35,845 nt of DNA from a virus (lineage: Duplodnaviria > Heunggongvirae > Uroviricota > Caudoviricetes). Below, piece by piece: positions 1 through 35,502 of this stretch (positions within the stretch are counted from its first letter, which is position 1; the number at the start of each line of letters is the position of its first letter). The stretch lies in the IMG/VR virus record IMGVR_UViG_2671180473_000015; one strand, written 5' to 3'. The translations under genes and the position numbers were made by a program. Below the pieces are notes generated by a model. It saw only the letters and a list, made by a program, of their open reading frames with translations. It had not been told where the DNA came from and did no database searches.

Positions 1-573
1 ATGTTTTGCGAAGAAAAAGTAGCTCAAATGGCTGCATACCTACTTCTTAAGCGAGGTGGGCGCATGGCATATCTGAAATTGATGAAGCTGCTCTATCTGT
101 CTAACCGCAAGTCGATTTTGAAGCATGGCAGGATGATCGGCGAAGATAGCCTTTACTCTATGAAATTTGGTCCAGTCATGTCGAATACGCTGAACTTGAT
201 TCGTGGTAAGGCTGAAGGTATTGGTGACTACTGGTACAACCTGATAGAGACGAACGGGCATGATGTGTTGTTGCGTTCAGATCCGAGGGAAATGGATGCA
301 GACGAGGTCTTTGATGAGTTGAGCCGTGCAGATATCCGGATTTTAGATGAAATCTATTCTCTGTATGGGCATATGAACCGATTTGATCTCGCAAACATGA
401 CGCATTTAGAAAGCGTTTGTCCAGAGTGGCACAATCCTGGCAATTCTCGTAAGCCTATAGACCTGAAAGAAATGCTGATCAGTGAGGGTAAAAGCGAGGA
501 TGAGGCTAATCGTATAATTGGCAAAATGGAAGAATCTCAGAAACTTAAGGAATTTTCTTTGCAATTATCATGA
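1..573 (+). CDS. Panacea-domain (DUF4065) phage-associated protein, SocA/GepA-like putative antitoxin
   Basis: 190-aa ORF starting at window position 1 (N-terminus may lie upstream). The segment AQMAAYLLLKRGGRMAYLKLMKLLYLSNR matches the conserved helix of DUF4065/Panacea proteins as I recall them. Stop overlaps the next ORF start (ATGA at 570-573). Confidence 0.6.
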   Translation: MFCEEKVAQMAAYLLLKRGGRMAYLKLMKLLYLSNRKSILKHGRMIGEDSLYSMKFGPVMSNTLNLIRGKAEGIGDYWYNLIETNGHDVLLRSDPREMDADEVFDELSRADIRILDEIYSLYGHMNRFDLANMTHLESVCPEWHNPGNSRKPIDLKEMLISEGKSEDEANRIIGKMEESQKLKEFSLQLS

Positions 574-989
574 CGGATTATCAGCCATACAGGAAAGGAA
601 CTGTGCTTGCCCCAACTGGGCCATGCAATCATCTTCATGTGATTTGTAATGATCCTGTTTATTACCCCGTTAACGATTGTTATTGTGTTTTAGTTGTTAA
701 TATTTCTAGTATCAAGGATGGTGTCCCCCACGATCCGTCTTGCGTCTTGAATTCTGGTGATCATCGCTTTATCAAGCATCCAAGTTATGTTGTTTACGCT
801 GAAGCTATAATTTGGCGAGTGGATAACATGGTTAGAAAGCAGCGATCGGGTGAGATTTCCGTTCATGATGATATGCCAGAAGCTACATTCAATAGAATTC
901 TGGACGGTTTTGATATATCTGATGAAGTTACGCCAAAGAACCTTAAATTTAAAAATAAATATTGCGTATCATCTATTGATGATGAGTAA
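570..989 (+). CDS. hypothetical protein translationally coupled to the Panacea-domain gene; candidate toxin partner
   Basis: 139-aa ORF whose ATG overlaps the upstream stop (ATGA). No family recognised. Contains an R-x6-H motif (RSGEISVH) reminiscent of HEPN, which is speculative. AT-rich. Confidence 0.45.
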   Translation: MTDYQPYRKGTVLAPTGPCNHLHVICNDPVYYPVNDCYCVLVVNISSIKDGVPHDPSCVLNSGDHRFIKHPSYVVYAEAIIWRVDNMVRKQRSGEISVHDDMPEATFNRILDGFDISDEVTPKNLKFKNKYCVSSIDDE

Positions 990-4477: not shown

Positions 4478-5152
4478 TTAGGCCTTTATTATGTATCTTC
4501 TTGGTTTTCCTGAGAAAATCACTGTACCAATTATAGAGCAATTACCGTTAATCTTAATGTAAGGCTCAGGCCAGTTTGGGTTTAATGCTTTGAGATAACG
4601 CTGTGTTCCATCTTCTATCAACCGCTTGAAGGTGGTTTCGCCTGTATCGTGCATCAATGCAATAACGTCGTCACCGTGGCAGGCAGGGACTTCAGGATCA
4701 ACAAAAATCATGTCTCCCGGGCGGTACTCATCAATCATTGAATCACCAATCACCCGCAAGATATAAGTCATTTCGCCACAGGGTACAGGGCAGGGATAAG
4801 TTTCTGCTGTGCTCAAATCAACCTCAGAATAGCCAACTTCTTTCCATGCTCCGGCCTGTACCCATGATATGACAGGGACTAACGTTATTTGTTTGTTAGT
4901 GATTGAAACGTCAGGTTTTTTTGTGATGTTCGTTGTCTGGTGTTCTTGATCAAGCCATCCGACAGGCAGGTCGAAACATTTTTCGATGTGCCGTGCCATG
5001 CTGTCACCGATATTTTTAGTTGCACCATCTCCCATAAACCTGCTGGTCTGGGTTGGCTCGCGATCAATCATGGTGGCAAAGGAAGAATTCCCGCCAACAC
5101 CATCTCTCAGTTTTCTGGCGTTAGACCGCCGGATGTCATGGACTGTTTTCAT
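4478..5152 (-). CDS. CI-like prophage repressor (HTH domain plus S24 LexA-like autopeptidase domain)
   Basis: 224-aa ORF. C-terminal domain carries the GDSM Ser motif (LRVIGDSM) and a downstream Lys (TFKRL) typical of S24 self-cleaving repressors. Divergent from the cro-like gene, with operator palindromes between them. Confidence 0.85.
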   Translation of the reverse strand: MKTVHDIRRSNARKLRDGVGGNSSFATMIDREPTQTSRFMGDGATKNIGDSMARHIEKCFDLPVGWLDQEHQTTNITKKPDVSITNKQITLVPVISWVQAGAWKEVGYSEVDLSTAETYPCPVPCGEMTYILRVIGDSMIDEYRPGDMIFVDPEVPACHGDDVIALMHDTGETTFKRLIEDGTQRYLKALNPNWPEPYIKINGNCSIIGTVIFSGKPRRYIIKA

Positions 5153-5474: not shown

Positions 5475-6038
5475 ATGAGGCTAACCGTGGGTAAGCATCA
5501 CTGGAAAGTAGAAAAACAGCCTGAGTGGTACGTGAAAGCTGTCAGAAAAACTATCGCGGCGTTGCCGGGGGGTTACGCTGAAGCTGCTGAGTGGCTGGAT
5601 GTAACAGAGAACGCTTTATTCAACCGCCTTCGTGCAGATGGCGATCAGATTTTCCCGCTGGGATGGGCAATGATTTTACAGCGCGCGGCTGGCACTCACT
5701 ACATTGCGGATGCTGTCGCACAGTCTGCTGGTGGGGTGTTTGTATCGCTTCCTGAAATTGAGGAAGTAGAGAACGCCGATATAAACCAGCGCCTGCTGGA
5801 AGTCATCGAACAGATCGGGAGTTACTCAAAGCAGATTCGTTCGGCAATCGAAGATGGGGTAGTGGAGCCACACGAGCAGACAGCAATTAATGATGAGTTG
5901 TATCTGTCAATTTCGAAGCTCCAGGAGCATGCAGCACTGGTCTACAAAATCTTTTGCGCTCCAGAAAAGAGTGACGCCCGCGAGTGTGCAGCTCCGGGCG
6001 TCGTGGCGTTTTGTGTCTGTGGAGAAACTAACGCATGA
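5475..6038 (+). CDS. early regulatory protein at the cII position (CII/YdaT-like, family uncertain)
   Basis: 187-aa ORF directly downstream of cro. Stop overlaps the next start (ATGA). Family assignment is from position and weak recollection only. Confidence 0.4.
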   Translation: MRLTVGKHHWKVEKQPEWYVKAVRKTIAALPGGYAEAAEWLDVTENALFNRLRADGDQIFPLGWAMILQRAAGTHYIADAVAQSAGGVFVSLPEIEEVENADINQRLLEVIEQIGSYSKQIRSAIEDGVVEPHEQTAINDELYLSISKLQEHAALVYKIFCAPEKSDARECAAPGVVAFCVCGETNA

Positions 6039-6871
6039 ACAGTTTAACGGCAAATAACCGTTTGTCGCAACAGCTGGTGGTCAGCGTCGCTGAACACCTG
6101 TTGTTACGGCATGAATGCAGATTACCAAATCACCTGGCTGTAAGTAACCACAGAGAACTTTACCTGACTGTGGGGGGCGAGTTGTGCAGGAACTTAACCG
6201 CTGGTTTCGTGACGGAAGAGGACTTTATGTTCATGTTATTCGTTGGGAGCCAGAAACACAGCGCGTTATCTATCTTCGCAAAGACTACCCGCATGAGTGC
6301 TTTAGTCCTTTGTGGAAATTCAGGCGTGATTTTGTTGAGTGTGAAGGACCACCAGCACATTGATTCTGCCATTCCGGGACGTTACACTGTTCAGGCACCT
6401 TATAAAGCGGGTGCCGGGATTGGCGTCCTGGAATTGATCAAGGCGATATATGACGCGCCAGCGTCTTTTTTATCGTCCGCATTTGCTCACATCAAAGTTA
6501 TGGTGGGCTGGGCGGGGGCATCGAAAGATGCGCCGGTTTCCTTGATCACCGGTTACGCCAACCCCGTTCAGTTCACCACCAGCGAAATTGGCGTTTCCGG
6601 TGGTGGAAGTATTTCACCGATCAAGGAGGCTGCCATCATGGCTACTGTCCCAGCCCTCACTCGTCTGAATGATGAAGACTTACATAAACTCAGTTATGTA
6701 ACAACTGCACTACGTGCTCTGCGCAAGGTAACTCTTTCGGATCCGCAGGCACATCAGGTTCTGGTAGAAACCCTTCTTAACTTGCAAGCTGAACGTATTC
6801 GTCTGGCGGATAAGGCTAATTTTCATATTCACCGTCTCCTGAATATCAGCGGAGGGCATCGTCATGCTTAA
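6035..6871 (+). CDS. hypothetical protein (gene structure uncertain)
   Basis: 278-codon open frame with SD GGAG upstream of the ATG at 6035, translationally coupled at both ends. No family recognised. An alternative 59-aa ORF in another frame (6184..6363) starts just after a G6 homopolymer, so a frameshift or overlapping genes cannot be excluded. Confidence 0.35.
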   Translation: MNSLTANNRLSQQLVVSVAEHLLLRHECRLPNHLAVSNHRELYLTVGGELCRNLTAGFVTEEDFMFMLFVGSQKHSALSIFAKTTRMSALVLCGNSGVILLSVKDHQHIDSAIPGRYTVQAPYKAGAGIGVLELIKAIYDAPASFLSSAFAHIKVMVGWAGASKDAPVSLITGYANPVQFTTSEIGVSGGGSISPIKEAAIMATVPALTRLNDEDLHKLSYVTTALRALRKVTLSDPQAHQVLVETLLNLQAERIRLADKANFHIHRLLNISGGHRHA

Positions 6872-7100
6872 TCCGTTGATCCTCAATATTTGCCGTTTGC
6901 TTCAGCGTAAAAAAATATCAATTCCTACAGTTGGGCAGTGGTACACCACGCCTGCAGGGCATGTTCTACGTGTTAGCCTGGTTGACCGTGAATGCCAGAA
7001 GGTGATTTGTGAACCGCTGGGCCGTAATTACCGCGTCAGTATGCCGCTTATAGCCTTTCGCTCCGGAAAAAACATGAAGCATCTCGGAGGTGCAGCATGA
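6864..7100 (+). CDS. small hypothetical protein (78 aa)
   Basis: ATG with upstream GGAGGG SD. Start overlaps the upstream stop and its stop overlaps the O-like start (ATGA), i.e. translational coupling within the early-right operon. Confidence 0.4.
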   Translation: MLNPLILNICRLLQRKKISIPTVGQWYTTPAGHVLRVSLVDRECQKVICEPLGRNYRVSMPLIAFRSGKNMKHLGGAA

Positions 7101-7915
7101 GTATGGAGCTGATGGTTAAAGCGATGAAAATTCGAGTGGGTAATCCATTGCGAAAACTGGTTCTGATCAAGCTGGCTGATAATGCCAGCGATCAGGGTGA
7201 GTGCTGGCCCAGCTACCAGCATATTGCTGACCAGTGCGAAATTAGCAAACGTTCTGTGATGAATCATATTGCGGCCCTTTGTGAGTCCGGGCTGGTAAAA
7301 AAAGTCACCCGGAAAGGTGAAAAAGGTAACTCAAGTAATATCTATCTCCTTCATCTGGATGGTGCAGGAGATTCACTAGGGGGTAGTGCAAATAATTCAC
7401 TATCTGGTGCAGCAAATTCACCAGGTAGTGCAGGAGTTGCACCAGGGGGTAGTGCAGGAGATTCACCCAGAACCAGTCACTCTTTTGAACCAGTCAAAGA
7501 ACCAGTCAATGAACCAATAGCTGTTGGTGCATCAGTTGATGAGTCCGTGCGAGTTCGTTCAAACCGACCGGAATACTCTCCGGAGTTTGAGCAGGCATGG
7601 CTGGCATATCCCAAACGTGCTGGTGGCAATTCAAAATCTGCAGCCTTCAAAGCCTGGAAAGCCCGTTTGAATGAGGGAGTAAACCCCGAAACCATGCTGG
7701 AAGGTGTGAAACGCTACGCGGGATGGGTATCTGCGATGGGTAACAGCGGCACACAATTTGTGAAACAGGCTGTCACGTTCTTTGGTCCGGATCGTCATTT
7801 CGAAGAATTCTGGGAAGTTCCTGCGGTATCTGCAGCCAGACGCGAGGACCCGTACTTCAAAGCCAGTTACGACAACGTGGACTACAGCCAGATCCCGGCA
7901 GGATTCAGGGGGTGA
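7097..7915 (+). CDS. replication initiator, lambda O-like (N-terminal winged-HTH replisome organiser)
   Basis: 272-aa ORF. N-terminus (KLVLIKLADNASDQGECWPSYQHIADQCEISKRSVMNHIAAL) is the classic phage replication-initiator HTH. A Gly/Ser-rich linker is encoded by an internal iteron array, as in lambda O. Confidence 0.7.
   Translation: MSMELMVKAMKIRVGNPLRKLVLIKLADNASDQGECWPSYQHIADQCEISKRSVMNHIAALCESGLVKKVTRKGEKGNSSNIYLLHLDGAGDSLGGSANNSLSGAANSPGSAGVAPGGSAGDSPRTSHSFEPVKEPVNEPIAVGASVDESVRVRSNRPEYSPEFEQAWLAYPKRAGGNSKSAAFKAWKARLNEGVNPETMLEGVKRYAGWVSAMGNSGTQFVKQAVTFFGPDRHFEEFWEVPAVSAARREDPYFKASYDNVDYSQIPAGFRG
7361..7508 (+). repeat. iteron array (candidate replication origin) inside the O-like gene
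   Basis: Five direct repeats of about 19 bp (consensus GGTAGTGCAGGAGATTCAC) at roughly 7361, 7382, 7406, 7424 and 7448, followed by three copies of AACCAGTCA at 7471, 7488 and 7500. Confidence 0.55.
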
Positions 7916-8406
7916 TCATGAGTCTTTTGAATGAAGTTCAGAAATTCATTGAAGCCCATCCGGGGTGTACTTCCGGAGACATTGCGGATGCTTTTGCAGG
8001 TTACTCACGGCAGCGCGTTCTGCAGTCAGCAAGCAAGTTACGTCAGAGTGGGCGTGTGGCTCACCGTTATGAAGGAGATACACGCAGACATTTCCCACGC
8101 CTGACTGAGAGAGCGCAGGAGCCGGAACCACAACCAGTTCGTGAAACCAGACCTGTGCGCAATTTCTATGTCGGCACTAACGATCCCCGGGTGATTTTGT
8201 GCCTGACCCGCCAGGCGGAAGAACTGGAGTCCAGGGGCTTATACCGTCGTGCTGCAACGGTGTGGATGGCGGCATTCCGTGAAAGCCACTCCCAGCCAGA
8301 ACGAAACAATTTTCTGGCGCGTCGTGAGCGGTGCTTACGGAAAAGCAGCAAGCGCGCTGCATCGGGTGAAGAGTGGTATCTGTCAGGGAATTACGTGGGG
8401 GCTTAA
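7912..8406 (+). CDS. winged-helix protein with PerC/ANR-like C-terminal region (putative regulator)
   Basis: 164-aa ORF. C-terminal AEELESRGLYRRAATVWMAAF...NFLARRERCL resembles the PerC motif (LEEAGYWRRAAECW...RRKQC) from memory. Occupies the position where lambda has P. Confidence 0.45.
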   Translation: MIMSLLNEVQKFIEAHPGCTSGDIADAFAGYSRQRVLQSASKLRQSGRVAHRYEGDTRRHFPRLTERAQEPEPQPVRETRPVRNFYVGTNDPRVILCLTRQAEELESRGLYRRAATVWMAAFRESHSQPERNNFLARRERCLRKSSKRAASGEEWYLSGNYVGA

Positions 8407-9059
8407 TGAGTAATAAATATTGCCAGGCGCTGGTGGAGCTGCGGAACAAACCAGCCCATGAACTGAAGGAAGTGGGCGATCAGTGGCGCACGCCGGATAA
8501 CATTTTCTGGGGAATTAACACCCTGTTTGGCCCGTTTGTTCTGGATCTGTTCACTGATGGTGATAACGCCAAATGTGCCGCTTATTACACTGCGGAAGAC
8601 AACGCGCTGGCGCATGACTGGTCTGAACGTCTTGCGGAGCTTAAAGGTGCTGCCTTTGGTAATCCCCCGTACAGCCGCGCCAGTCAGCATGAAGGGCAAT
8701 ACATCACCGGCATGCGTTACATCATGAAACATGCCAGTGCCATGCGTGATAAGGGCGGACGCTATGTTTTCCTGATCAAAGCTGCCACCAGCGAAGTGTG
8801 GTGGCCGGAAGATGCAGATCATATTGCTTTTATTCGCGGGCGTATTGGTTTTGAACTGCCTGCCTGGTTTATCCCGAAGGACGAGAAGCAGGTGCCGACA
8901 GGCGCTTTCTTCGCTGGTGCTATTGCTGTTTTCGACAAGACCTGGAAGGGACCGGCAATCAGCTACATCGGGCGCGATGAACTTGAGGCATGTGGTGAGG
9001 CGTTTCTGGCGCAGGTTCGCCAGCAGGCGGAAAAACTGGTCAGGGAGATGGCGGCATGA
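8406..9059 (+). CDS. phage Dam-family DNA N6-adenine methyltransferase
   Basis: 217-aa product from the ATG at 8406. NPPY catalytic motif (AFGNPPYSR) and overall similarity to phage Dam methylases (PF05869-like) as I recall them. No adjacent restriction endonuclease. Confidence 0.8.
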   Translation: MSNKYCQALVELRNKPAHELKEVGDQWRTPDNIFWGINTLFGPFVLDLFTDGDNAKCAAYYTAEDNALAHDWSERLAELKGAAFGNPPYSRASQHEGQYITGMRYIMKHASAMRDKGGRYVFLIKAATSEVWWPEDADHIAFIRGRIGFELPAWFIPKDEKQVPTGAFFAGAIAVFDKTWKGPAISYIGRDELEACGEAFLAQVRQQAEKLVREMAA

Positions 9060-9382
9060 CGACGTTAACTCAATGCCAGCAGCAGGTGCTGGATATGCTG
9101 ATTTCTTACCAGAAAGAACGTGGCTTCCCGCCAACCAATCAGGAGGTGGCAACCATGCTGGGATACCGTTCAGTGAATGCAGCGGTGGAACATCTTCGCG
9201 CACTGGAGAAAAAAGGCGTCATCACGATAAAGCGTGGCATGGCCCGGGGTATCACTCTTCATACCGCGGTGAAGGACGACGACAGCGAGGCGGTCGGGAT
9301 TATCCGCTCACTGCTTGCCGGTGAGGAAAACGCCAGGCTGCGTGCAACCCACTGGTTACATGAGAGAGGCCTGAAAGTATGA
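9056..9382 (+). CDS. LexA N-terminal DNA-binding-domain protein lacking the S24 peptidase domain
   Basis: 108-aa ORF. LTQCQQQVLDMLISYQKERGFPPTNQEVATMLGYRSVNAAVEHLRALEKKGVITI aligns closely with the E. coli LexA N-terminus ([55 protein letters not shown]). The protein ends before any Ser-Lys peptidase domain. Confidence 0.7.
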   Translation: MTTLTQCQQQVLDMLISYQKERGFPPTNQEVATMLGYRSVNAAVEHLRALEKKGVITIKRGMARGITLHTAVKDDDSEAVGIIRSLLAGEENARLRATHWLHERGLKV

Positions 9383-9768
9383 AGCTGATCCTGCCTTTCC
9401 CGCCCAGCGTGAACACGTACTGGCGACACCCCAACAAAGGGGCATTTGCTGGTAAGAGCCTGATAAGCGCGGCGGGGCGAAAATTTCAGAGCGCGGCGTG
9501 CGCAGCAATAGTTGAGCAGTTACGTCGTCTGCCAAAACCAACGTCGGCACCTGCTTCAGTGGAGATCGTGTTGTTTCCTCCGGATAACCGGATCCGCGAT
9601 CTGGACAACTATAACAAGGCGCTGTTTGACGCCCTGACCCACGCGGGGGTGTGGGAAGACGACAGCCAGGTGAAAAGAATGCTGGTGGAGTGGGGACCGG
9701 TTATCCAGAAAGGGAAGGTCGAGATCACTATCAGTAAGTATGAGAAACCGGCGGGTGCAGCCGCCTGA
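9379..9768 (+). CDS. rusA: RusA-family Holliday junction resolvase
   Basis: 129-aa ORF starting MKLILPFPPSVNTYW, the RusA signature, with conserved acidic residues (DLDNYNKALFDAL). Confidence 0.85.
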   Translation: MKLILPFPPSVNTYWRHPNKGAFAGKSLISAAGRKFQSAACAAIVEQLRRLPKPTSAPASVEIVLFPPDNRIRDLDNYNKALFDALTHAGVWEDDSQVKRMLVEWGPVIQKGKVEITISKYEKPAGAAA

Positions 9769-9787
9769 TCAAGAGGAGAAACGAAGT

Positions 9788-10597
9788 ATGAATAATCTGA
9801 TGGTCATTGATGGTATTGAAGTTCGTCGTGATGCTTATGGGCGTTACAGCCTGAACGATCTGCACAGGGCAGCCGGGGGAGAACAAAAAAACCGCCCGAA
9901 ATACTGGCTCTCCAATAAGCAAACCTGTGAATTGATTGAACAACTTTTCACCGAGGGTGGAATTCCGCCTCTGGAACAAAATCAACCAGTTAGCGTCATT
10001 AATGGCGGAAATAACCAGGGGACGTATGTCTGCAAAGAACTGGTGTATGCCTATGCAATGTGGATCAGCCCGTCATTCCATCTGAAGGTGATCCGTACTT
10101 TCGACATGGTAACCAGCGCACCGGAAAAATTATCCGGACAGGCTGCTGACAAGATGCAGGCTGGCGTGATCCTGCTGGACTTTATGCGCCGGGAATTAAA
10201 TCTGTCTAACTCATCAGTGCTTGGAGCCTGTCAGAAGCTTCAGGAGGCTGTTGGCTTACCGAATCTGGCACCGCGCTATGCCATTGATGCTCCTGCTGAC
10301 GCGCCTGATGGCTCAAGTCGCCCCACGCTGTCGCTGAGTGCACTGCTGAAGCAGTATGGTATCCGCCTGACGGCTAATCAGGCATATCACCAGATGGTGA
10401 AGCTGGGGATCGTTGAACAACGCGAACGATACAGCCGTACCGCGATTAACAACATCAAAAAATTCTGGTCGCTGACGGCGAAAGGCTGCATGTTCGGCAA
10501 GAACATCACCAGTCCTGCAAATCCGCGCGAGACGCAGCCGCATTTCTTCGAATCCCGATTCCCTGAGCTGTTAAAGCTGCTCGATACCGTTCATTGA
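9788..10597 (+). CDS. KilA-N domain protein (antirepressor-like)
   Basis: 269-aa product from the ATG at 9788 (SD GAGGAG upstream). N-terminal KilA-N domain (VIDGIEVRRDAYGRYSLNDLHRAAGGEQKNRPKYWLSNKQTCELIEQL...YAMWISPSFHLKVIRTF). Confidence 0.7.
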   Translation: MNNLMVIDGIEVRRDAYGRYSLNDLHRAAGGEQKNRPKYWLSNKQTCELIEQLFTEGGIPPLEQNQPVSVINGGNNQGTYVCKELVYAYAMWISPSFHLKVIRTFDMVTSAPEKLSGQAADKMQAGVILLDFMRRELNLSNSSVLGACQKLQEAVGLPNLAPRYAIDAPADAPDGSSRPTLSLSALLKQYGIRLTANQAYHQMVKLGIVEQRERYSRTAINNIKKFWSLTAKGCMFGKNITSPANPRETQPHFFESRFPELLKLLDTVH

Positions 10598-10598
10598 G

Positions 10599-11594
10599 GT
10601 GACCGTGAGAGCACTACTGACCCCTGAAATTGCCCCGCGTATGGGGATCGTATTGTTCAGGCCAGGTTCAGAGCTGATGCCCCTGTTTATGCAGGGGCGT
10701 GTTCTGCTGGAGCCTGAGCCGGAACGTTATTCATCTTTCGCCAGTGGTGCCGTTCCGGCGGCATCACAACCGCTGGCGGATGATCCTGCCGTTCGGGCCG
10801 TGTTCCGCAATGAGGCAGTGATCCGTCGTGCTGGTGGCGTGGAATGTCTTGAAAGCTGGTTACTTCGTGAAAAAGGCTGCCAGTGGCCTCATTCCGACTG
10901 GCACAGCGAGAACATGACCACAATGCGACACGCTCCGGGCGCAATCCGTCTGTGCTGGCACTGCGATAACCAGCTGCGCGATCAGTTCACGGAACGGCTG
11001 GAATCAATGGCAACGGATAACTGTGCCCGCTGGGTGTTGTCTGTTGTGCGTCGGGATCTCGGTTTTGATGATAGTCACGTTGTGACAATGCCGGAACTGT
11101 GCTGGTGGCTGATTCGTAATGACCTGGCGGATGCCTTACCGGAAAGTGCAGCCCGTAAGGCACTGAGATTACCAAAGCCTGTTGTGCCGTCTGTCACCCG
11201 GGAAAGTGACCTTGTGCCTTCGGTTCCTGCCACCAGCATCATCCAGGATAAGGCAAAAAAGGTGCTGGCGCTGAAAGTGGATCCGGAGTCGCCGGAGTCT
11301 TTTATGTTACGCCCAAAACGCCGCCGCTGGGTTAATGAAAAGTACACGCGCTGGGTTAAGACACAGCCGTGTGCATGTTGTGGAAAGCCTGCTGATGATC
11401 CCCACCACCTGATAGGCCACGGTCAGGGTGGAATGGGTACAAAAGCGCATGACCTCTTTGTGTTGCCTTTGTGCAGAAAGCATCACGACGAGCTGCATGC
11501 GGATACCGTGGCATTTGAAGAGAAGTATGGCTCCCAGCTGGAGCTGATATTTCGTTTTATCGATCGTGCGCTGGCAATTGGCGTATTGGCGTAA
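10599..11594 (+). CDS. DUF968 / YdfU-like protein with C-terminal Cys/His zinc-binding (HNH-like) motif
   Basis: 331-aa ORF with GTG start at 10599 (alternative GTG at 10605). C-terminus CACCGKPADDPHHLIGHGQGG...CRKHHDELH. Family assigned from memory. Confidence 0.55.
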   Translation: MTVRALLTPEIAPRMGIVLFRPGSELMPLFMQGRVLLEPEPERYSSFASGAVPAASQPLADDPAVRAVFRNEAVIRRAGGVECLESWLLREKGCQWPHSDWHSENMTTMRHAPGAIRLCWHCDNQLRDQFTERLESMATDNCARWVLSVVRRDLGFDDSHVVTMPELCWWLIRNDLADALPESAARKALRLPKPVVPSVTRESDLVPSVPATSIIQDKAKKVLALKVDPESPESFMLRPKRRRWVNEKYTRWVKTQPCACCGKPADDPHHLIGHGQGGMGTKAHDLFVLPLCRKHHDELHADTVAFEEKYGSQLELIFRFIDRALAIGVLA

Positions 11595-11607
11595 GTGGAG
11601 AACGAGC

Positions 11608-12360
11608 ATGAACCTTGAAGCCTTACCAAAATATTACTCCCCAAAATCTCCAAAATTGAGCGATGACGCACCGGCGACAGGCTCAGGTGGTTTAACGATT
11701 ACGGATGTGATGGCTGCGCAGGGGATGGTGCAGTCGAAAGCACCGCTTGGGTTTGCCTTATTCCTGGCAAAAGTTGGTGTTCAGGATCCTCAATTTGCGA
11801 TTGAAGGTCTGCTCAATTACGCGATGGCACTGGATAACCCGACATTGAACAAATTGAGTGAAGAAACCCGGTTACAGATCATCCCTTACCTTGTGAATTT
11901 TGCCTTTGCTGATTATTCCAGGTCTGCGGCAAGTAAGGCTCGCTGTGAGCATTGTGCTGGTACTGGATTTCATAATGTATTGCGCGAAGTGGTGAAACAC
12001 TCCAGAAGCGGGGAATCTGTTATCAAGGAAGAGTGGGTGAAGGAACTATGTCAGCATTGCCATGGTAAGGGAGAAGTCAGCACAGCGTGCAGAGGGTGTA
12101 AGGGTAAAGGTATTGTCCTGGATGAAAAAAGAACCCGGCTTCATGGTGTGCCTGTTTATAAGATTTGTGGGCGTTGCAATGGCAACCGGTTTAGCCGTTT
12201 ACCAACCACACTGGCGCGGCATCATGTCCAGAAACTGGTACCGGACCTGACGGATTATCAGTGGTACAAAGGATATGCAGACGTTATTAATAAACTGGTT
12301 ACAAAGTGCTGGCAGGAAGAAGCGTATGCTGAATCGCAATTGAGAAAAGTGACAAGATAG
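11608..12360 (+). CDS. Q: late-gene antitermination protein Q
   Basis: 250-aa product from the ATG at 11608 (SD GGAG 7 nt upstream). Paired CxxC zinc-finger motifs (CEHCAGTGF, CQHCHGKGE, CRGCKGKG, CGRCNGNRF) typical of Q antiterminators. Immediately upstream of a promoter-plus-terminator unit. Confidence 0.8.
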   Translation: MNLEALPKYYSPKSPKLSDDAPATGSGGLTITDVMAAQGMVQSKAPLGFALFLAKVGVQDPQFAIEGLLNYAMALDNPTLNKLSEETRLQIIPYLVNFAFADYSRSAASKARCEHCAGTGFHNVLREVVKHSRSGESVIKEEWVKELCQHCHGKGEVSTACRGCKGKGIVLDEKRTRLHGVPVYKICGRCNGNRFSRLPTTLARHHVQKLVPDLTDYQWYKGYADVINKLVTKCWQEEAYAESQLRKVTR

Positions 12361-12391
12361 ATAATTTTCGCCGAAGATGTCGACGTGATAC

Positions 12392-12420
12392 TTGCATTTT
12401 TCAAAAAATATGGATAAGAT
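12392..12420 (+). promoter_or_regulatory. PR'-like late promoter (candidate Q-utilisation region)
   Basis: -35 TTGCAT (12392-12397), 17-nt spacer, -10 TAAGAT (12415-12420). Lies between the Q stop and the tR'-like terminator, as in lambda. Confidence 0.45.
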
Positions 12421-12463
12421 TTTCTCAACGATGGGCCTTGTATGTCTACCGTTGGTAAATGTC

Positions 12464-12490
12464 AAAAACCCGCCGCTGAGCGGGTTTTTT
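12464..12490 (+). terminator. tR'-like rho-independent terminator
   Basis: AAAAACCCGCCGCTGAGCGGGTTTTTTGTGCC: GC stem plus T-run about 45 nt downstream of the candidate late promoter. Confidence 0.7.
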
Positions 12491-12639
12491 GTGCCTGATG
12501 TCTCATGAAACTATGAAATGGATTGGTGCGTTAAACATTTTTTCTTATTATCTTTTAGATTTTGGAGAGATGGTTAACGTCTGTATTCCAGAAACTCGAT
12601 GGTTATTTAATAAATTAGTTTCAATGATGCTTCTAGGTT

Positions 12640-13065
12640 ATGACTGTAATGAAAAAGGTATTAATAGCAGCGATAGGTTTTTGTTTAGTTGGTTGTGCAG
12701 GTATGAAATTACCTGAGTATTCGCAAGTTAAAGCAAGTCCGTATTATACAGATTGCCGTGCGTTTGCCATGGATGTTTATAAAAATGATGGATACAGCAA
12801 AATTGCGAAAACTACTATCCTTAGCATGGATGATGTGAAAGCTAGATATATTGTGACAGGGTGTGTAGTTGCTATGGGGAAAAACACTGTAGAGGAAATC
12901 AAAGCTGATCTCTCTGCTAAAGGGAGTTCTTTTGGGCTTATCAGTGGAGCTTGTTCTAGTGCGGCATGTCGGGTTGATGTAGAGCAGCAAATGAACGCTT
13001 ATGTACTTGGTAGTTATTATGCTGCAAATAAAAAATTCCCGGATAAAATGAAAGCAGAGTTTTAA
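12640..13065 (+). CDS. lipoprotein encoded by an AT-rich moron between Q and the lysis genes
   Basis: 141-aa ORF. Signal peptide with lipobox (MKKVLIAAIGFCLVGCAG; Cys in LVGC). Several further Cys residues. The flanking region 12490-13140 is markedly AT-rich and bounded by two near-identical terminators. Confidence 0.65.
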   Translation: MTVMKKVLIAAIGFCLVGCAGMKLPEYSQVKASPYYTDCRAFAMDVYKNDGYSKIAKTTILSMDDVKARYIVTGCVVAMGKNTVEEIKADLSAKGSSFGLISGACSSAACRVDVEQQMNAYVLGSYYAANKKFPDKMKAEF

Positions 13066-13142
13066 GCAAACCTTGTTTTCGATTATATGTCGAAGATAAA
13101 TGTTAGTAACGGCATAATAAGTAAATATATAGCTGTGATAGC

Positions 13143-13168
13143 AACCCGCCACTGAGCGGGTTTTTTGT
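13143..13168 (+). terminator. second tR'-like terminator (near-duplicate of 12464-12490)
   Basis: CAACCCGCCACTGAGCGGGTTTTTTGTACCC: same stem and T-run as the terminator at 12464-12490 with two substitutions. Confidence 0.7.
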
Positions 13169-13288
13169 ACCCGTAAACTTGGTGCAGTACAGTAAACACG
13201 CTGGTGGTCGTGAATACTGACTTTTTATCTTGCTGGCTTTTTAGACAAGAGTTATTGGTATGTCATGTTAACCAGAAGGGAAAAAGAC

Positions 13289-13492
13289 ATGCTAAAACAG
13301 CAAGATATGACAGAAACCGCCGCCGCAGTCCTTCATTTCTTACCTGCTGACAAGTGGGTAACGCCACGCATGATGACGAGAACTACCGGAGTAAGCGAAG
13401 CCCGGTGCCAGTTAATACTGACTCAGTTAGTTCTGGCGGGTCTGGCGAAGGATAACGGCGGGTACGGGAATAAATTCAGACGCTGCCAGTAA
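13289..13492 (+). CDS. small hypothetical protein (possible winged-helix protein)
   Basis: 67-aa product from an ATG with an AAGGGA SD-like sequence upstream (track ORF 13265..13492). No recognised family. Directly upstream of the second methyltransferase gene. Confidence 0.35.
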   Translation: MLKQQDMTETAAAVLHFLPADKWVTPRMMTRTTGVSEARCQLILTQLVLAGLAKDNGGYGNKFRRCQ

Positions 13493-13642
13493 TGGCGGTT
13501 TCCTGCTGTGAAAATGGGCGGCTGGTGGGTGTTGGTAGCACCTGCCAGCCATTCGCTCATGCTTACTGGTCACAAGCGAACCACGGCCCACTGCTTTAGC
13601 GCAAAAGCAGAGTGAGCCTACCAGAGTTACGCTTACTGATCC

Positions 13643-14695
13643 ATGAAAAATACTGTAAAAATAAACAGTGTTGATTTAATCAACGCTGATTGCCTGCATT
13701 TTATTCAGTCCCTGCCTGATGATTCCATTGACCTGATTGTTACCGATCCGCCTTACTTCAAGGTGAAACCCAACGGTTGGGACAATCAGTGGAAAGGGGA
13801 CGAAGATTACCTTAAGTGGCTGGACCACTGTCTGGCCCAGTTCTGGCGGGTGTTGAAACCTGCCGGAAGCCTTTACCTGTTCTGTGGGCATCGCCTGGCA
13901 TCTGATATTGAGATCATGATGCGTGAACGTTTCAACGTGCTTAACCATATCATCTGGGCGAAGCCGTCCGGACGTTGGAATGGGTGTAATAAAGAAAGTC
14001 TGCGCGCATATTTTCCTGCCACAGAGCGCGTTCTGTTTGCTGAACATTACCAGGGGCCATATCGCGGCAAAAGTGACGGCTATGCGGCAAAAGAAAGGGA
14101 ACTCAAACAGCACATAATGGCACCGCTGATATCGTATTTCAGGGATGCTCGTGCCGAACTGGGTATAACGGCAAAACAAATTGCCGAAGCCACAGGTAAG
14201 AAAAATATGGTTTCCCACTGGTTTGGTGCCAGTCAGTGGCAGTTGCCGAATGAGGCTGACTATCGGAAGTTACAGGCACTGTTTTCCCGTATAGCGGCAG
14301 AGAAGTTTCAGGAACAACAACTGGAACAACCACACCACCAGCTGGTGGCATCTTATGATTCACTGAATCGTAAATATTCTGAATTGCTGGATGAGTTTAA
14401 ATCTCTCCGGCGCTATTTCTCCGTATCAGTCTCCGTGCCTTATACCGATGTCTGGATGCATAAACCCGTTCAGTTCTACCCGGGGAAACATCCGTGTGAG
14501 AAACCGGCGGATATGCTCAGGCAAATAATCAATGCCAGTAGTCGACCAGGTGATCTGGTTGCTGATTTTTTTATGGGATCCGGTTCCACAATAAAAGCAG
14601 CAATGGCGCTGGGGCGTCGGGCCTTAGGTGTTGAGCTTGAGTCAGAGCGGTTTAATCAGACAGTGAAAGAGATAAACGAGCTGGTGGGGAAATAA
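13643..14695 (+). CDS. DNA methyltransferase, N4/N6 beta-class (DPPY motif before FxGxG motif)
   Basis: 350-aa ORF. Catalytic motif IVTDPPYF near the N-terminus and SAM-binding DFFMGSGST near the C-terminus (PF01555-type order). No cognate endonuclease in the window. Confidence 0.85.
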
Positions 14696-14697
14696 TC

Positions 14698-14725
14698 TGG
14701 TGGCCACGTCAGGTGGCCTTTTTAT
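14698..14725 (+). terminator. rho-independent terminator after the methyltransferase gene
   Basis: Stem GGCCAC / GTGGCC with loop GTCAG, followed by TTTTT. Confidence 0.5.
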
Positions 14726-14762
14726 TTCCATTACACAGCACCCGCATCTGCGAGGTGGGGTT

Positions 14763-14900
14763 ATGAAATCCATGGATAAGTTAACAACGGGTGTCGCCTA
14801 TGGCACCTCAGCAGGTAGTGCCGGGTACTGGTTTTTACAGTTGCTCGATAAAGTCACGCCCTCACAGTGGGCGGCAATAGGTGTGCTGGGTAGTCTGGTA
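14763..14900 (+). CDS. S: S21-type pinholin (class II holin), 3' end lost in an N-run
   Basis: ATG at 14763 with [57 protein letters not shown] matches phage 21 S21 ([46 protein letters not shown]) from memory, including the dual-start Met1/Met4 motif. The true stop lies within the N-run (expected near 14978 if 71 aa). Confidence 0.8.
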
Positions 14901-15140
14901 NNNNNNNNNNNNNNNNNNNNNNNNNNNNNNNNNNNNNNNNNNNNNNNNNNNNNNNNNNNNNNNNNNNNNNNNNNNNNNNNNNNNNNNNNNNNNNNNNNNN
15001 NNNNNNNNNNNNNNNNNNNNNNNNNNNNNNNNNNNNNNNNNNNNNNNNNNNNNNNNNNNNNNNNNNNNNNNNNNNNNNNNNNNNNNNNNNNNNNNNNNNN
15101 NNNNNNNNNNNNNNNNNNNNNNNNNNNNNNNNNNNNNNNN
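14901..15140. other. N-run (240 nt) - assembly gap or masked sequence
   Basis: Continuous n characters; removes the holin 3' end and the holin-endolysin junction. Confidence 0.95.
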
Positions 15141-31294: not shown

Positions 31295-31896
31295 AAACGG
31301 GGTCCGAAGCCATCCGGGCGCTGGCCATGCAGATCCCGGCGTTTCGTCAGAAACTGAATGAGGGCTGGTATCAGGTGCGCATTGCCGGGCGTGATGCAGG
31401 CGAAAATGAATTATCTGCCCGTCTTAATGAGCCGCTGGCAAATGGTGCCGTGATCCACATCGTGCCGCGTCTGGCGGGAGCTAAAAGTGGCGGTGTGTTT
31501 CAGGTGGTGCTTGGGGCGGCGCTGATTGCGGTGGCATGGTGGAACCCTGTGGGCTGGCTGGGGNNNNNNNNNNNNNNNNNNNNNNNNNNNNNNNNNNNNN
31601 NNNNNNNNNNNNNNNNNNNNNNNNNNNNNNNNNNNNNNNNNNNNNNNNNNNNNNNNNNNNNNNNNNNNNNNNNNNNNNNNNNNNNNNNNNNNNNNNNNNN
31701 NNNNNNNNNNNNNNNNNNNNNNNNNNNNNNNNNNNNNNNNNNNNNNNNNNNNNNNNNNNNNNNNNNNNNNNNNNNNNNNNNNNNNNNNNNNNNNNNNNNN
31801 NNNNNNNNNNNNNNNNNNNNNNNNNNNNNNNNNNNNNNNNNNNTCAGCACGGCAGACGAAGGGGATGGTGGTCAGGTTGTGGTGATTGGTCGCTGA
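31192..31896 (+). CDS. I: tail assembly protein I (interrupted by an N-run)
   Basis: Starts MAATHTLPLASPGMARICLYGDLQRFGRRIDLRV as in lambda I. Overlaps the 3' end of K in another frame, as in lambda. The middle is lost in the N-run 31564-31843. Ends ...STADEGDGGQVVVIGR. Confidence 0.75.
   Translation: MAATHTLPLASPGMARICLYGDLQRFGRRIDLRVKTGSEAIRALAMQIPAFRQKLNEGWYQVRIAGRDAGENELSARLNEPLANGAVIHIVPRLAGAKSGGVFQVVLGAALIAVAWWNPVGWLGXXXXXXXXXXXXXXXXXXXXXXXXXXXXXXXXXXXXXXXXXXXXXXXXXXXXXXXXXXXXXXXXXXXXXXXXXXXXXXXXXXXXXXXXXXXXXXSTADEGDGGQVVVIGR
31564..31843. other. N-run (280 nt) - assembly gap or masked sequence
   Basis: Continuous n characters inside gene I. Confidence 0.95.

Positions 31897-31956: not shown

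Positions 31957-35502
<3,546 letters not shown>

What the first reader, a model, noticed from the sequence alone, without database searches (positions are those of the whole stretch)
8406..14695. Two unrelated orphan DNA methyltransferases in one prophage
A Dam-family N6-adenine methyltransferase (8406-9059, NPPY motif) lies in the early operon, and a second beta-class N4/N6 methyltransferase (13643-14695, DPPY then FxGxG) lies in the late region just before lysis. Neither has an adjacent restriction endonuclease. Expression at different infection stages suggests layered anti-restriction protection of progeny DNA or epigenetic effects on the host. The target specificities are unknown.
Basis: partly seen in the sequence, partly recalled or inferred. 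Interest (0 to 1): 0.5.

Follow-up and report, generated by a model that had tools for sequence, protein, structure and literature searches.

The report
Known phage methylase pair, structured leader
This E. coli prophage carries two already-described phage DNA methylases: an early Dam-type enzyme, and a late enzyme of the M.EcoGII family, which methylates adenines in any sequence. The pairing is common and ordinary, and the only possibly new item is a conserved folded RNA leader in front of the late gene.

Summary
Both genes exist exactly where stated, are intact, carry their catalytic motifs and are under purifying selection. Neither has a restriction partner.

The pair is not new. The early enzyme is 215/217 identical to the Dam of Shigella phage SfV. 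The late one is 98-100% identical to SfV orf48 and the phage cdtI methylase, and at least 81% identical over its full length to M.EcoGII. M.EcoGII is the characterised non-specific adenine methyltransferase, silent in lysogens and harmful when overexpressed. So "specificities unknown" is outdated: the expected targets are GATC (early) and any adenine (late).

The same 6.3-kb block, with both genes, occurs in SfV, mEp460, 1720a-02, Stx2c phages and 306 of 5426 complete E. coli genomes.

The late gene lies behind Q, two copies of a terminator, and a small winged-helix ORF. This fits late-only expression and protection of progeny DNA from restriction, not host epigenetics.

One thing was unexpected. 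The 138 nt before the late gene form a conserved RNA with strong covariation and two alternative folds. It has no Rfam match. It was found almost only in front of this methylase family (43 of 45 independent genomic hits). It is a candidate undescribed control element.

The parts
8406..9059 (+). Early orphan Dam-type N6-adenine methyltransferase (217 aa), an orthologue of SfV Dam/orf41. NPPY codons are at 8661-8672. The gene is translationally coupled to its neighbours: TAATG at 8404-8408 and ATGA at 9056-9059.
   Evidence: PF05869 E=9.7e-46, TIGR01712 255.6 bits. 215/217 identical to SfV Dam. Junctions were read. dN/dS is 0.03 against SfV.
11608..12360 (+). Antiterminator Q (Q82/YdfT type). 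It is the regulator expected to switch on everything downstream, including the late methylase.
   Evidence: PF03589 Antiterm E=6.9e-54. The start is taken from the mEp460 annotation of the 753-nt orthologue.
12467..12490 (+). Rho-independent terminator after Q (tR'-like): AACCCGCCGCTGAGCGGGTT followed by a T run. The Q-tR' spacer (12361-12466) should hold the late promoter. The best hexamers there (TTGCAT 12392-12397, 17-nt spacer, TAAGAT 12415-12420) match only 7/12.
   Evidence: Sequence read. Homologous to the terminator annotated in the SfV record (alignment). The promoter is inferred only and was not reported by the consensus scan.
12640..13065 (+). Low-GC 141-aa ORF (lipoprotein-like N terminus, phrog_4748, no Pfam). 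It is inserted between two copies of the tR' terminator and is absent from SfV. It is context, not part of the methylase function.
13143..13168 (+). Second copy of the tR' terminator (AACCCGCCACTGAGCGGGTT followed by a T run).
   Evidence: Terminator scan and alignment with SfV and mEp460.
13265..13492 (+). Small ORF (75 aa, or 67 aa from the ATG at 13289) with weak winged-helix/MarR-like similarity (phrog_331). A homologue lies just upstream of the late methylase in SfV, 1720a-02, phiP27, phiNP, a Morganella phage, PY54 (ORF59) and N15 (gp51).
   Evidence: Protein alignment A6. A homologue was detected within 500 nt upstream of 22 of 45 genomic motif instances.
13505..13642 (+). Conserved structured leader RNA that ends at the methylase ATG. 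Segments: 1 AUGGGCG 13514-13520; hypervariable hairpin P2 13520-13550; 2 UUCGCUCAU 13552-13560; 2' ACAAGCGAA 13572-13580; 3 GGCCCA 13585-13590; hairpin P3 13591-13610; 4 GUGAGC 13612-13617; 5 GCUUAC 13631-13636; UGAUCC 13637-13642. There are two mutually exclusive folds. Fold A is 1:2 + 3:4 + (13567-13582 : 13624-13643). Fold B is 1:3 + 2:2' + 4:5.
   Evidence: Covariance model R1 scores 127 bits on the window. No Rfam match. Fold energies are -56.9 against -55.4 kcal/mol.
13643..14695 (+). Late orphan beta-class N6-adenine methyltransferase (350 aa) of the M.EcoGI/M.EcoGII family. DPPY is at 13745-13756 and FMGSG at 14570-14584.
   Evidence: PF01555 E=2.2e-42. 281/349 identical to the M.EcoGII sequence. 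100% identical to the phage cdtI methylase and 98% to SfV orf48. dN/dS 0.06-0.09.
14702..14726 (+). Terminator-like hairpin (GGCCACGTCAGGTGGCC followed by a T run) between the methylase stop and the holin start (ATG 14763, MKSMDK...).
   Evidence: Annotated as a terminator at the same place in the SfV and N15 records. The holin is PF04971 and its start was read.

Best explanation
The window is a lambdoid E. coli prophage of the SfV / mEp460 / 1720a-02 type. It carries the standard two-methylase module of that group. Neither gene is part of a restriction-modification system.

(1) The early gene sits in the pR (nin-like) operon and is translationally coupled to replication and recombination genes. 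It encodes a small phage Dam (PF05869). By near-identity to SfV Dam it should methylate GATC. Its inferred role is to keep rapidly replicating phage DNA fully GATC-methylated, because host Dam is limiting for lambda and P22 DNA.

(2) The late gene encodes an M.EcoGI/GII-type beta-class enzyme, expected to methylate adenines regardless of sequence. It lies downstream of Q, two terminator copies, a small winged-helix ORF and a structured leader. It should therefore be made only after Q antitermination, shortly before packaging and lysis. That timing would load progeny genomes with m6A and blunt many m6A-sensitive Type I/II/III systems in the next host. It would also spare the lysogen an enzyme that is deleterious when overexpressed.

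Shown here: gene identities, motifs, synteny, prevalence, purifying selection, and the conserved leader structure. Inferred: the specificities (by homology), the timing (by position), and the anti-restriction benefit.
For: The early enzyme is 215/217 identical to SfV Dam, which the record annotates as 'dam DNA adenine methylase'. The same Pfam family holds VT2-Sa orf32, the only methyltransferase annotated in the 30 kb of that record examined and presumably M.EcoVT2Dam (GATC).

The late enzyme is 81% identical, colinear over its full length, to M.EcoGII. M.EcoGII is non-specific, prophage-borne and silent in the lysogen; cells overexpressing it from a plasmid grow more slowly (PMC5778455). Homologues with 92-93% similarity (O111 STEC) or 99% identity (ST131) to M.EcoGI/GII are likewise predicted to be non-specific, and no methylation from them was detected.

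Phage 1720a-02, which the M.EcoGII paper names as carrying a 'very similar' enzyme, has the identical Dam ... Q - small ORF - methylase layout. The order Q or late promoter, terminator, small ORF, methylase, terminator, holin is conserved in SfV, phiP27, phiNP, a Morganella phage, PY54 and N15.

The whole block is present at >=80% coverage in 306 of 5426 E. coli genomes and 21 phage records. dN/dS is 0.03-0.09. No REase-like neighbour was found. Under-methylation of lambda and P22 virion DNA by host Dam is cited in bioRxiv 10.1101/2020.10.05.325894.
Against: No activity or expression data exist for this prophage. The M.EcoGII sequence came from a machine-read supplement and contains reading errors, so 81% is a lower bound. 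Identity is lowest in the central, putative target-recognition part (77% over aa 116-270), so a change of specificity cannot be excluded. The experimental confirmation of SfV Dam is recalled from the abstract of Allison et al. 2002 (J Bacteriol 184:1974); the paper is not held. A phage Dam in a Dam+ host is partly redundant, and its benefit is unproven. Heavy m6A could expose progeny DNA to methyl-adenine-dependent Type IV enzymes such as Mrr. The late promoter itself was not identified convincingly.
Confidence: 0.8

Rival explanations
1. The late enzyme is a sequence-specific methyltransferase, not a non-specific one. It has diverged about 19% from M.EcoGII, mostly in the central region that would hold a target-recognition domain.
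For: Identity to M.EcoGII falls from 88% (aa 1-115) to 77% (aa 116-270) and 75% (aa 271-350). Many PF01555 enzymes are site-specific, for example RsrI, MboIIA and CcrM.
Against: The alignment with M.EcoGII is colinear over the full length with only two single-residue gaps. The authors treat M.EcoGII as one member of a very large E. coli prophage family. Scores against the CcrM and YhdJ-type equivalog models are far below cutoff (68 vs 830 and 110 vs 292).
Confidence: 0.1
2. One or both genes are inactive relics of a decaying prophage.
For: Many E. coli prophages are defective. The window carries masked N runs, so the integrity of the lysis and tail regions could not be fully read. No methylation from such genes is seen in lysogens.
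Against: Both reading frames are intact with all catalytic motifs. dN/dS is 0.03-0.09. The late protein is 100% identical to that of phage cdtI, and the region is 97.9% identical in DNA to phage mEp460, both deposited as complete phage genomes. Silence in lysogens is expected for late genes.
Confidence: 0.05
3. The methylases act mainly on the host, as lysogenic-conversion epigenetic regulators, and not on phage DNA.
For: The SfV record annotates a separate promoter in front of dam. A distantly related phage Dam in the Stx phage phi24B was detected in lysogen cultures (PMC3342100). Host Dam affects the stability of 933W lysogeny.
Against: The late gene sits behind two terminators that need Q. 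M.EcoGI/GII give no detectable methylation in their native lysogen, and the ST131 homologue is transcribed significantly below dam. E. coli already methylates more than 99% of GATC sites, so an extra Dam adds little to the chromosome. No promoter was found upstream of dam by the consensus scan in this window.
Confidence: 0.08
4. The genes are the modification halves of restriction-modification systems whose nuclease partners lie nearby.
For: A DUF968 protein with an HNH-like motif lies 1.5 kb downstream of dam (10599-11594).
Against: DUF968/YdfU is a standard lambdoid nin-region gene, present with or without the methylases. It gives no PADLOC hit. All immediate neighbours have ordinary phage functions. 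The literature classes both enzyme families as orphans.
Confidence: 0.02

Closest known systems
Shigella phage SfV Dam (orf41) and orf48 (Allison et al. 2002; GenBank U82619)
   Same: Same two genes in the same order and context. The proteins are 99% and 98% identical. From memory, the SfV paper already noted 'multiple DNA methylases' and confirmed orf41 as a Dam methylase.
   Different: The window, like mEp460, has an extra 141-aa ORF and a duplicated terminator between Q and the small ORF. It also has a different central part of the small ORF and a phage-21-type instead of a lambda-type holin.
M.EcoGII / M.EcoGI of E. coli O104:H4 C227-11 (Murray et al. 2018, PMC5778455)
   Same: 349-350 aa beta-class enzyme with DPPY then FxGxG, at least 81% identical over its full length, and prophage-borne. 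Phage 1720a-02, which carries a close homologue, has the same Dam ... Q - small ORF - methylase module.
   Different: About 19% sequence divergence, concentrated in the central and C-terminal parts. Activity was not measured for this allele.
M.EcoVT2Dam of Stx2 phage VT2-Sa (Radlinska & Bujnicki 2001, cited in PMC6602927)
   Same: VT2-Sa orf32, which I take to be M.EcoVT2Dam because it is the only methyltransferase annotated in the region examined, is in the same Pfam family PF05869. It is also in the nin region, and M.EcoVT2Dam is listed as GATC-specific.
   Different: Only 31% identical and 175 instead of 217 aa. The window's enzyme has a C-terminal extension.
N15 gp52 and PY54 gp60 adenine methylases of linear-plasmid prophages
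   Same: 56-60% identical homologues of the late enzyme. They have the same terminator - leader - methylase - terminator - holin arrangement and the same leader RNA motif. PY54 also has a second, PF05869-like methylase, gene 55.
   Different: They belong to different phage groups, and the leader's stems differ in sequence (compensatory changes).
Attenuator-type or translational riboregulatory leaders, and C-protein control of R-M genes (functional analogies for the leader and small ORF)
   Same: A chain of mutually exclusive helices ends at the ribosome-binding region, and a small helix-turn-helix-like protein is encoded just upstream of a methylase gene whose timing matters.
   Different: There is no sequence or structure match to any Rfam family. 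No ligand, leader peptide or binding site has been identified. The small protein is not a recognised C protein (only a weak MarR_2 hit).

Membership tests
Phage Dam, Pfam PF05869 / NCBIfam TIGR01712 (phage N-6-adenine-methyltransferase) | Profile score above the curated cutoff over the whole domain | tested here: met
   PF05869: 156 bits against 28.1, profile positions 3-167 of 169. TIGR01712: 255.6 bits against 97.05, positions 1-165 of 165.
Phage Dam, Pfam PF05869 / NCBIfam TIGR01712 | Catalytic (D/N)PP(Y/F) motif conserved on alignment | tested here: met
   NPPY at aa 86-89. It aligns with NPPY of VT2-Sa Dam and NPPF of PY54 gp55.
Phage Dam, Pfam PF05869 / NCBIfam TIGR01712 | Methylates the adenine of GATC | not testable with these tools
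   Inferred from 99% identity to SfV Dam, which the record annotates as dam and which, from memory, was confirmed in Allison et al. 2002. Family member M.EcoVT2Dam is listed as GATC.
M.EcoGI/M.EcoGII family of non-specific beta-class adenine methyltransferases | Beta-class order: DPPY (motif IV) N-terminal, FxGxG (motif I) C-terminal, length about 350 aa | tested here: met
   DPPY at 35-38, FMGSG at 310-314, 350 aa. PF01555 matches across 29-341.
M.EcoGI/M.EcoGII family of non-specific beta-class adenine methyltransferases | Close full-length sequence similarity to M.EcoGII | tested here: met
   281/349 identical and 90% positives, with two 1-residue gaps. The reference was read by machine from a supplement, so this is a lower bound.
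M.EcoGI/M.EcoGII family of non-specific beta-class adenine methyltransferases | Encoded in a prophage and not expressed in the lysogen | tested here: inconclusive
   The prophage location, downstream of Q and terminators, is shown. Expression itself cannot be tested here.
M.EcoGI/M.EcoGII family of non-specific beta-class adenine methyltransferases | Methylates adenine in any sequence context (DNA, and also RNA) | not testable with these tools
   Shown only for M.EcoGII itself.
CcrM / YhdJ-type cell-cycle or ATGCAT methyltransferases | Score above the equivalog cutoff | tested here: not met
   NF050803 CcrM: 68 bits against 830. NF008572: 110 bits against 292.
Type II restriction-modification system | Cognate restriction endonuclease encoded next to the methyltransferase | tested here: not met
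   All flanking ORFs have ordinary phage annotations. PADLOC hits are to methyltransferase models only.
Any described RNA family (Rfam 15), for the leader 13505-13642 | Covariance-model match | tested here: not met
   No match at E<=1 in 12300-14900. Only chance-level hits on the opposite strand at E<=10 in 13470-13670.

The most novel reading that the evidence does not exclude
The late, non-specific methylase is not simply a passenger of the late operon. It travels as a three-part cassette: a small winged-helix protein, a roughly 135-nt bistable leader RNA, and the methylase. The leader would be a previously undescribed cis-regulatory RNA. It would gate translation of a potentially self-harmful enzyme by switching between a fold that pairs the UGAUC/AUG region (fold A: 1:2, 3:4, start-proximal helix) and a three-way-junction fold that frees it (fold B: 1:3, 2:2', 4:5). 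The trigger could be the small protein, a metabolite such as SAM or SAH, or the folding kinetics of Q-modified transcription.
Probability: 0.4. Interest if true: 0.55.

Novelty: already known. Interest (0 to 1): 0.25.

Why it matters
As submitted, the finding adds nothing new. The two enzymes, their orphan status and their co-occurrence were described in SfV in 2002. The late family was characterised biochemically in 2018, and the module sits in hundreds of sequenced E. coli.

Practically, annotators should read the late gene as 'M.EcoGII-like, probably non-specific m6A' and not as a site-specific enzyme of unknown motif. They should also distrust the 'phosphoadenosine phosphosulfate reductase' label that RefSeq attaches to the Dam.

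The leader RNA is the one item worth a follow-up. M.EcoGII is widely used as a chromatin and RNA footprinting tool, yet how phages keep it silent until late is unknown. A dedicated RNA switch plus a small protein would explain the silence and the tolerance of a gene whose overexpression slows growth. It would also add a phage-specific regulatory RNA class.

Tried and rejected
(1) GATC statistics. There are 139 sites against 174 expected by a Markov model (ratio 0.80). This is within the range of other 4-mer palindromes (0.54-1.11), so there is no sign of GATC selection.

(2) Solved structures. The Dam has no PDB relative by sequence. The late enzyme hits only generic beta-class methylases. I ran no further search on either, because it would not change the verdict.

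(3) Reading the primary papers. Neither the SfV paper (PMC134923), the Fang et al. 2012 methylome paper (PMC3879109) nor the Murphy et al. 2013 review (PMC3837797) is held. One literature search was wasted on 'SfV', which matches simian foamy virus.

(4) A sigma-70 promoter for dam or for the late operon. The consensus scan found none at the expected places. The best late-promoter hexamers match only 7/12.

(5) RNAalifold on plain MAFFT alignments recovered only the 1:3 helix, because the variable hairpins were misaligned. A covariance-model alignment was needed.

(6) Helix 4:5 of fold B is poorly supported in the phage set (49% paired). The predicted difference in start-site accessibility between the two folds is modest (7.9 against 9.4 unpaired of 15 nt). 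The 'switch' reading therefore remains a hypothesis.

(7) tRNA scan of the window: none found.


Full report
**What is there.** The window is a lambdoid E. coli prophage. From left to right it holds:
- a CI-type repressor (4478-5152, minus strand), Cro/CII-like genes and an Ash-family gene;
- a replication protein (7097-7915) and a PerC-like protein (7912-8406);
- the first methyltransferase (8406-9059);
- a LexA-DNA-binding-like protein, RusA, KilA-N and DUF968/HNH;
- antiterminator Q (to 12360);
- a low-GC 141-aa ORF and a small ORF (13265-13492);
- the second methyltransferase (13643-14695);
- a phage-21-type holin, lysozyme and Rz;
- a lambda-type terminase and structural genes.

- The first ORF matches Pfam Dam PF05869 (E=9.7e-46) and the NCBIfam equivalog for phage N-6-adenine methyltransferase (255.6 bits, cutoff 97). 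It has NPPY at residues 86-89.
- The second matches PF01555 (E=2.2e-42), with DPPY at 35-38 and FMGSG at 310-314, which is the beta-class order.
- The two proteins have no detectable sequence similarity to each other.
- No neighbour resembles a restriction endonuclease, and the defence-system library returns only methyltransferase models.
- Both genes are under strong purifying selection: dN/dS is 0.06-0.09 for the late gene against 81-83% identical homologues, and 0.03 for Dam against SfV.

**The pair is already known and common.**
- The 6.9-kb stretch 8000-14900 is 97.9% identical to phage mEp460, about 97% to SfV and 96.6% to a series of Stx2c-converting phages. All of them carry both genes, annotated as methylases where the records are annotated.
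- The early protein is 215/217 identical to SfV Dam and the late one 344/350 identical to SfV orf48. The late protein is 100% identical to the 'putative DNA methylase' of phage cdtI.
- Among 5426 complete E. coli genomes, the Dam gene matches in 2120. The query 13200-14900 (late gene plus flanks) gives some match in 3960 and covers at least 80% of the query in 1055. The whole block 8406-14695 is present at >=80% coverage in 306.
- From memory, the SfV genome paper (Allison et al. 2002, J Bacteriol 184:1974) states that SfV encodes multiple DNA methylases and that orf-41 was confirmed experimentally as a Dam methylase. I could not read it here, but the GenBank record names the gene dam.

**The specificities are not unknown.**
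- I took the M.EcoGII protein sequence from the supplement of the SUPREM paper (PMC11551740). The late enzyme is 281/349 identical to it, colinear over the whole length. That text was machine-read and contains errors, so this is a lower bound.
- M.EcoGII and its 95%-identical twin M.EcoGI are prophage enzymes of E. coli O104:H4. They methylate adenine in any context, are not expressed in the lysogen, and slow growth when overexpressed. The authors propose that they are switched on when the prophage leaves, to overcome restriction (PMC5778455).
- Methylome studies of O111 STEC and ST131 list close homologues as 'nonspecific' and found them silent.
- Phage 1720a-02, which the M.EcoGII paper singles out as having a very similar enzyme, has the same replication - PerC-like - Dam - LexA-like - RusA - KilA-N - DUF968 - Q - small ORF - methylase order as the window.
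- For the early enzyme, the family also contains VT2-Sa orf32 (31% identical, PF05869). I take this to be M.EcoVT2Dam, because it is the only methyltransferase annotated in the part of that record examined. M.EcoVT2Dam is listed as GATC-specific.
- The expected targets are therefore GATC (early) and any adenine (late). Both rest on homology only.

**Timing and likely mechanism.**
- The Dam gene is embedded in the early rightward operon. It is translationally coupled on both sides: TAATG at 8404-8408 and ATGA at 9056-9059, and the next junction at 9379-9382 is again ATGA.
- The late gene lies after Q and after a rho-independent terminator (12467-12490) that corresponds to the one annotated in SfV. 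In the window and mEp460 this terminator is duplicated (13143-13168), and the two copies flank an inserted low-GC ORF. Another terminator-like hairpin (14702-14726) separates the methylase from the holin, as annotated in SfV and N15.
- The order 'late promoter or Q, terminator, small ORF, methylase, terminator, holin' holds in SfV, phiP27, Citrobacter phiNP, a Morganella phage, Yersinia PY54 and N15.
- By position, the late enzyme should be made only under Q antitermination. That fits its silence in lysogens.
- I infer that it hyper-methylates progeny DNA just before packaging. I also infer that the early Dam tops up GATC methylation on fast-replicating DNA, which host Dam leaves under-methylated in lambda and P22 (cited).
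- The cost is possible exposure to methyl-adenine-dependent Type IV nucleases such as Mrr.

**An unplanned observation: a conserved leader RNA.**
- The 138 nt upstream of the late ATG were 100% conserved between the window, SfV and mEp460, although the small ORF just before them differs. When more distant phages were added, the region stayed alignable, with stems that change sequence but keep pairing.
- From 236 loci I collected 109 distinct leaders, and all but six carry the motif.
- A covariance model built on 36 representatives found one hit in each of 68 of the 71 sources searched. Every hit was on the gene's strand, and nearly all end at the methylase ATG. The window scored 127 bits at 13505-13645.

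**Covariation evidence for the leader.**
- Phage set, fold B: 79.8% of cells pair, against 33-43% when partners are slid. 29 of 36 pairs show changes on both sides.
- The long-range helix UGGGC:GCCCA pairs in 100% of sequences, including C-G to G-C and U-A to G-C swaps. The hypervariable hairpin P2 pairs in 90.7%.
- A second, mutually exclusive set of helices (fold A) is also conserved. The 1:2 helix pairs in 89% of cells, and its variation is confined to one side and mostly preserved by wobble pairs, as expected if segment 1 must serve two partners. The 3:4 helix and the helix that covers the nucleotides just before the AUG show compensatory changes.
- Many G-U pairs mean the structure belongs to the sense-strand RNA.
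- The two folds are nearly isoenergetic: -56.9 against -55.4 kcal/mol in the window, with a median difference of -1.5 across 63 sequences.
- The conserved UGAUCC before the AUG is complementary to GGAUCA near the 3' end of 16S rRNA (established sequence). It may serve as the ribosome-binding element that fold A hides.

**Independent test of the leader.**
- I scanned one genome per bacterial species with a DNA pattern of the motif's conserved blocks only.
- The model accepted 45 of the first 100 stretches, at 88-128 bits, and accepted none of the others at E<=0.001. Almost all carry Enterobacterales record titles: Citrobacter, Enterobacter, Kosakonia, Morganella, Providencia, Yersinia, Hafnia, Rahnella, Erwinia, Rosenbergiella and others. 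Three are labelled otherwise (a Geobacteraceae MAG, Limoniibacter, Vagococcus).
- In 43 of the 45, a homologue of the late methylase follows the motif directly. In 42 of these it begins exactly at the motif's ATG; in one the match starts only at residue 53. One exception is cut by the end of the stored DNA and one (Erwinia psidii) lacks the gene.
- In this set 87% of cells pair, against 33-44% in slid controls.
- Rfam 15 has no matching family, and a literature search linking M.EcoGII to riboswitches found nothing.
- A homologous small winged-helix-like ORF precedes the leader in every phage examined, including N15 gp51 and PY54 ORF59.

**Caveats on the leader.** The alignments were fitted to the model. 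Helix 4:5 is weak in the phage set. The predicted accessibility difference between the folds is modest. No trigger is known. I regard the structured leader as real (about 0.85), and its role as a translational gate for a deleterious enzyme as a reasonable but untested hypothesis.

**Verdict.** The finding is accurate as an observation and ordinary as biology. Both enzymes and their pairing are published, their likely specificities are known by close homology, and the module is widespread. I score the finding itself low. The modest overall score reflects only the leader RNA and small-ORF cassette, which lies inside the reported coordinates and may be undescribed.

Noticed in passing
window 13505-13642 (+): A roughly 135-nt conserved structured leader lies directly upstream of the late methylase. 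It has strong covariation, two mutually exclusive folds and no Rfam match, and it is found almost exclusively in front of M.EcoGII-family genes.
   Followed up: yes
window 13265-13492 (+): A small ORF (phrog_331, weak MarR-like winged helix) is always encoded just upstream of the leader and methylase, from E. coli phages to PY54 ORF59 and N15 gp51. Its middle part is swapped between the window and SfV while its flanks are identical. It may be a regulator of the cassette.
   Followed up: partly
window 12467-12490 and 13143-13168, flanking 12640-13065: The terminator after Q is present twice. The copies bracket a low-GC (about 41%) 141-aa ORF with a lipoprotein-like N terminus that SfV lacks. 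This looks like a moron inserted by duplication of the terminator.
   Followed up: partly
RefSeq phage records NC_019716, NC_003444, NC_049941; locus L360 1492-2826: RefSeq re-annotations call this Dam 'phosphoadenosine phosphosulfate reductase'. The label seems to come from a PHROG family built on fusion proteins such as the 444-aa Dam plus extra-domain protein of phage Eeyore.
   Followed up: partly
L009 (phage N15) 2501-3589: The N15 record starts gp52 at 2735. The homology, including the DPPY motif, starts at an ATG at 2501, right after the leader motif. The deposited gp52 is therefore probably truncated at its N terminus.
   Followed up: partly
window 13637-13645: The sequence before the late gene's AUG has no AGGAGG-type Shine-Dalgarno. 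Instead it has a conserved UGAUC(C/U), complementary to GGAUCA near the 16S rRNA 3' end. It is also a GATC (Dam) site, and in many relatives its pairing partner upstream contains GATC too.
   Followed up: no
window 14901-15140, 30118, 31564-31843, 32455-32681, 34451-34666: Runs of N mask part of the holin and downstream region and parts of the tail-fibre region, so these genes cannot be read completely.
   Followed up: no
window 1-573 and 570-989 (+): A SocA/Panacea-domain protein, followed by an overlapping ORF without a Pfam hit, lies at the left end. It may be a toxin-antitoxin-like pair at the prophage edge.
   Followed up: no
loci L215, L216, L221; L253 (Erwinia psidii): A few methylase homologues (about 59% identical) have a different leader without the motif. 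One genome has the motif and the small ORF but no methylase behind it.
   Followed up: no
L008 (PY54) 1-498; L006 (phiNP) 1-180; L009 (N15) 5660-6047; L360 2819-3609: Other temperate phages with the late methylase also carry a second or third methylase: PY54 gene 55 (PF05869-like), phiNP 'met', the N15 gp58 cytosine-type enzyme, and a further methylase in Eeyore. Multiple orphan methylases per phage are the rule in this group.
   Followed up: partly
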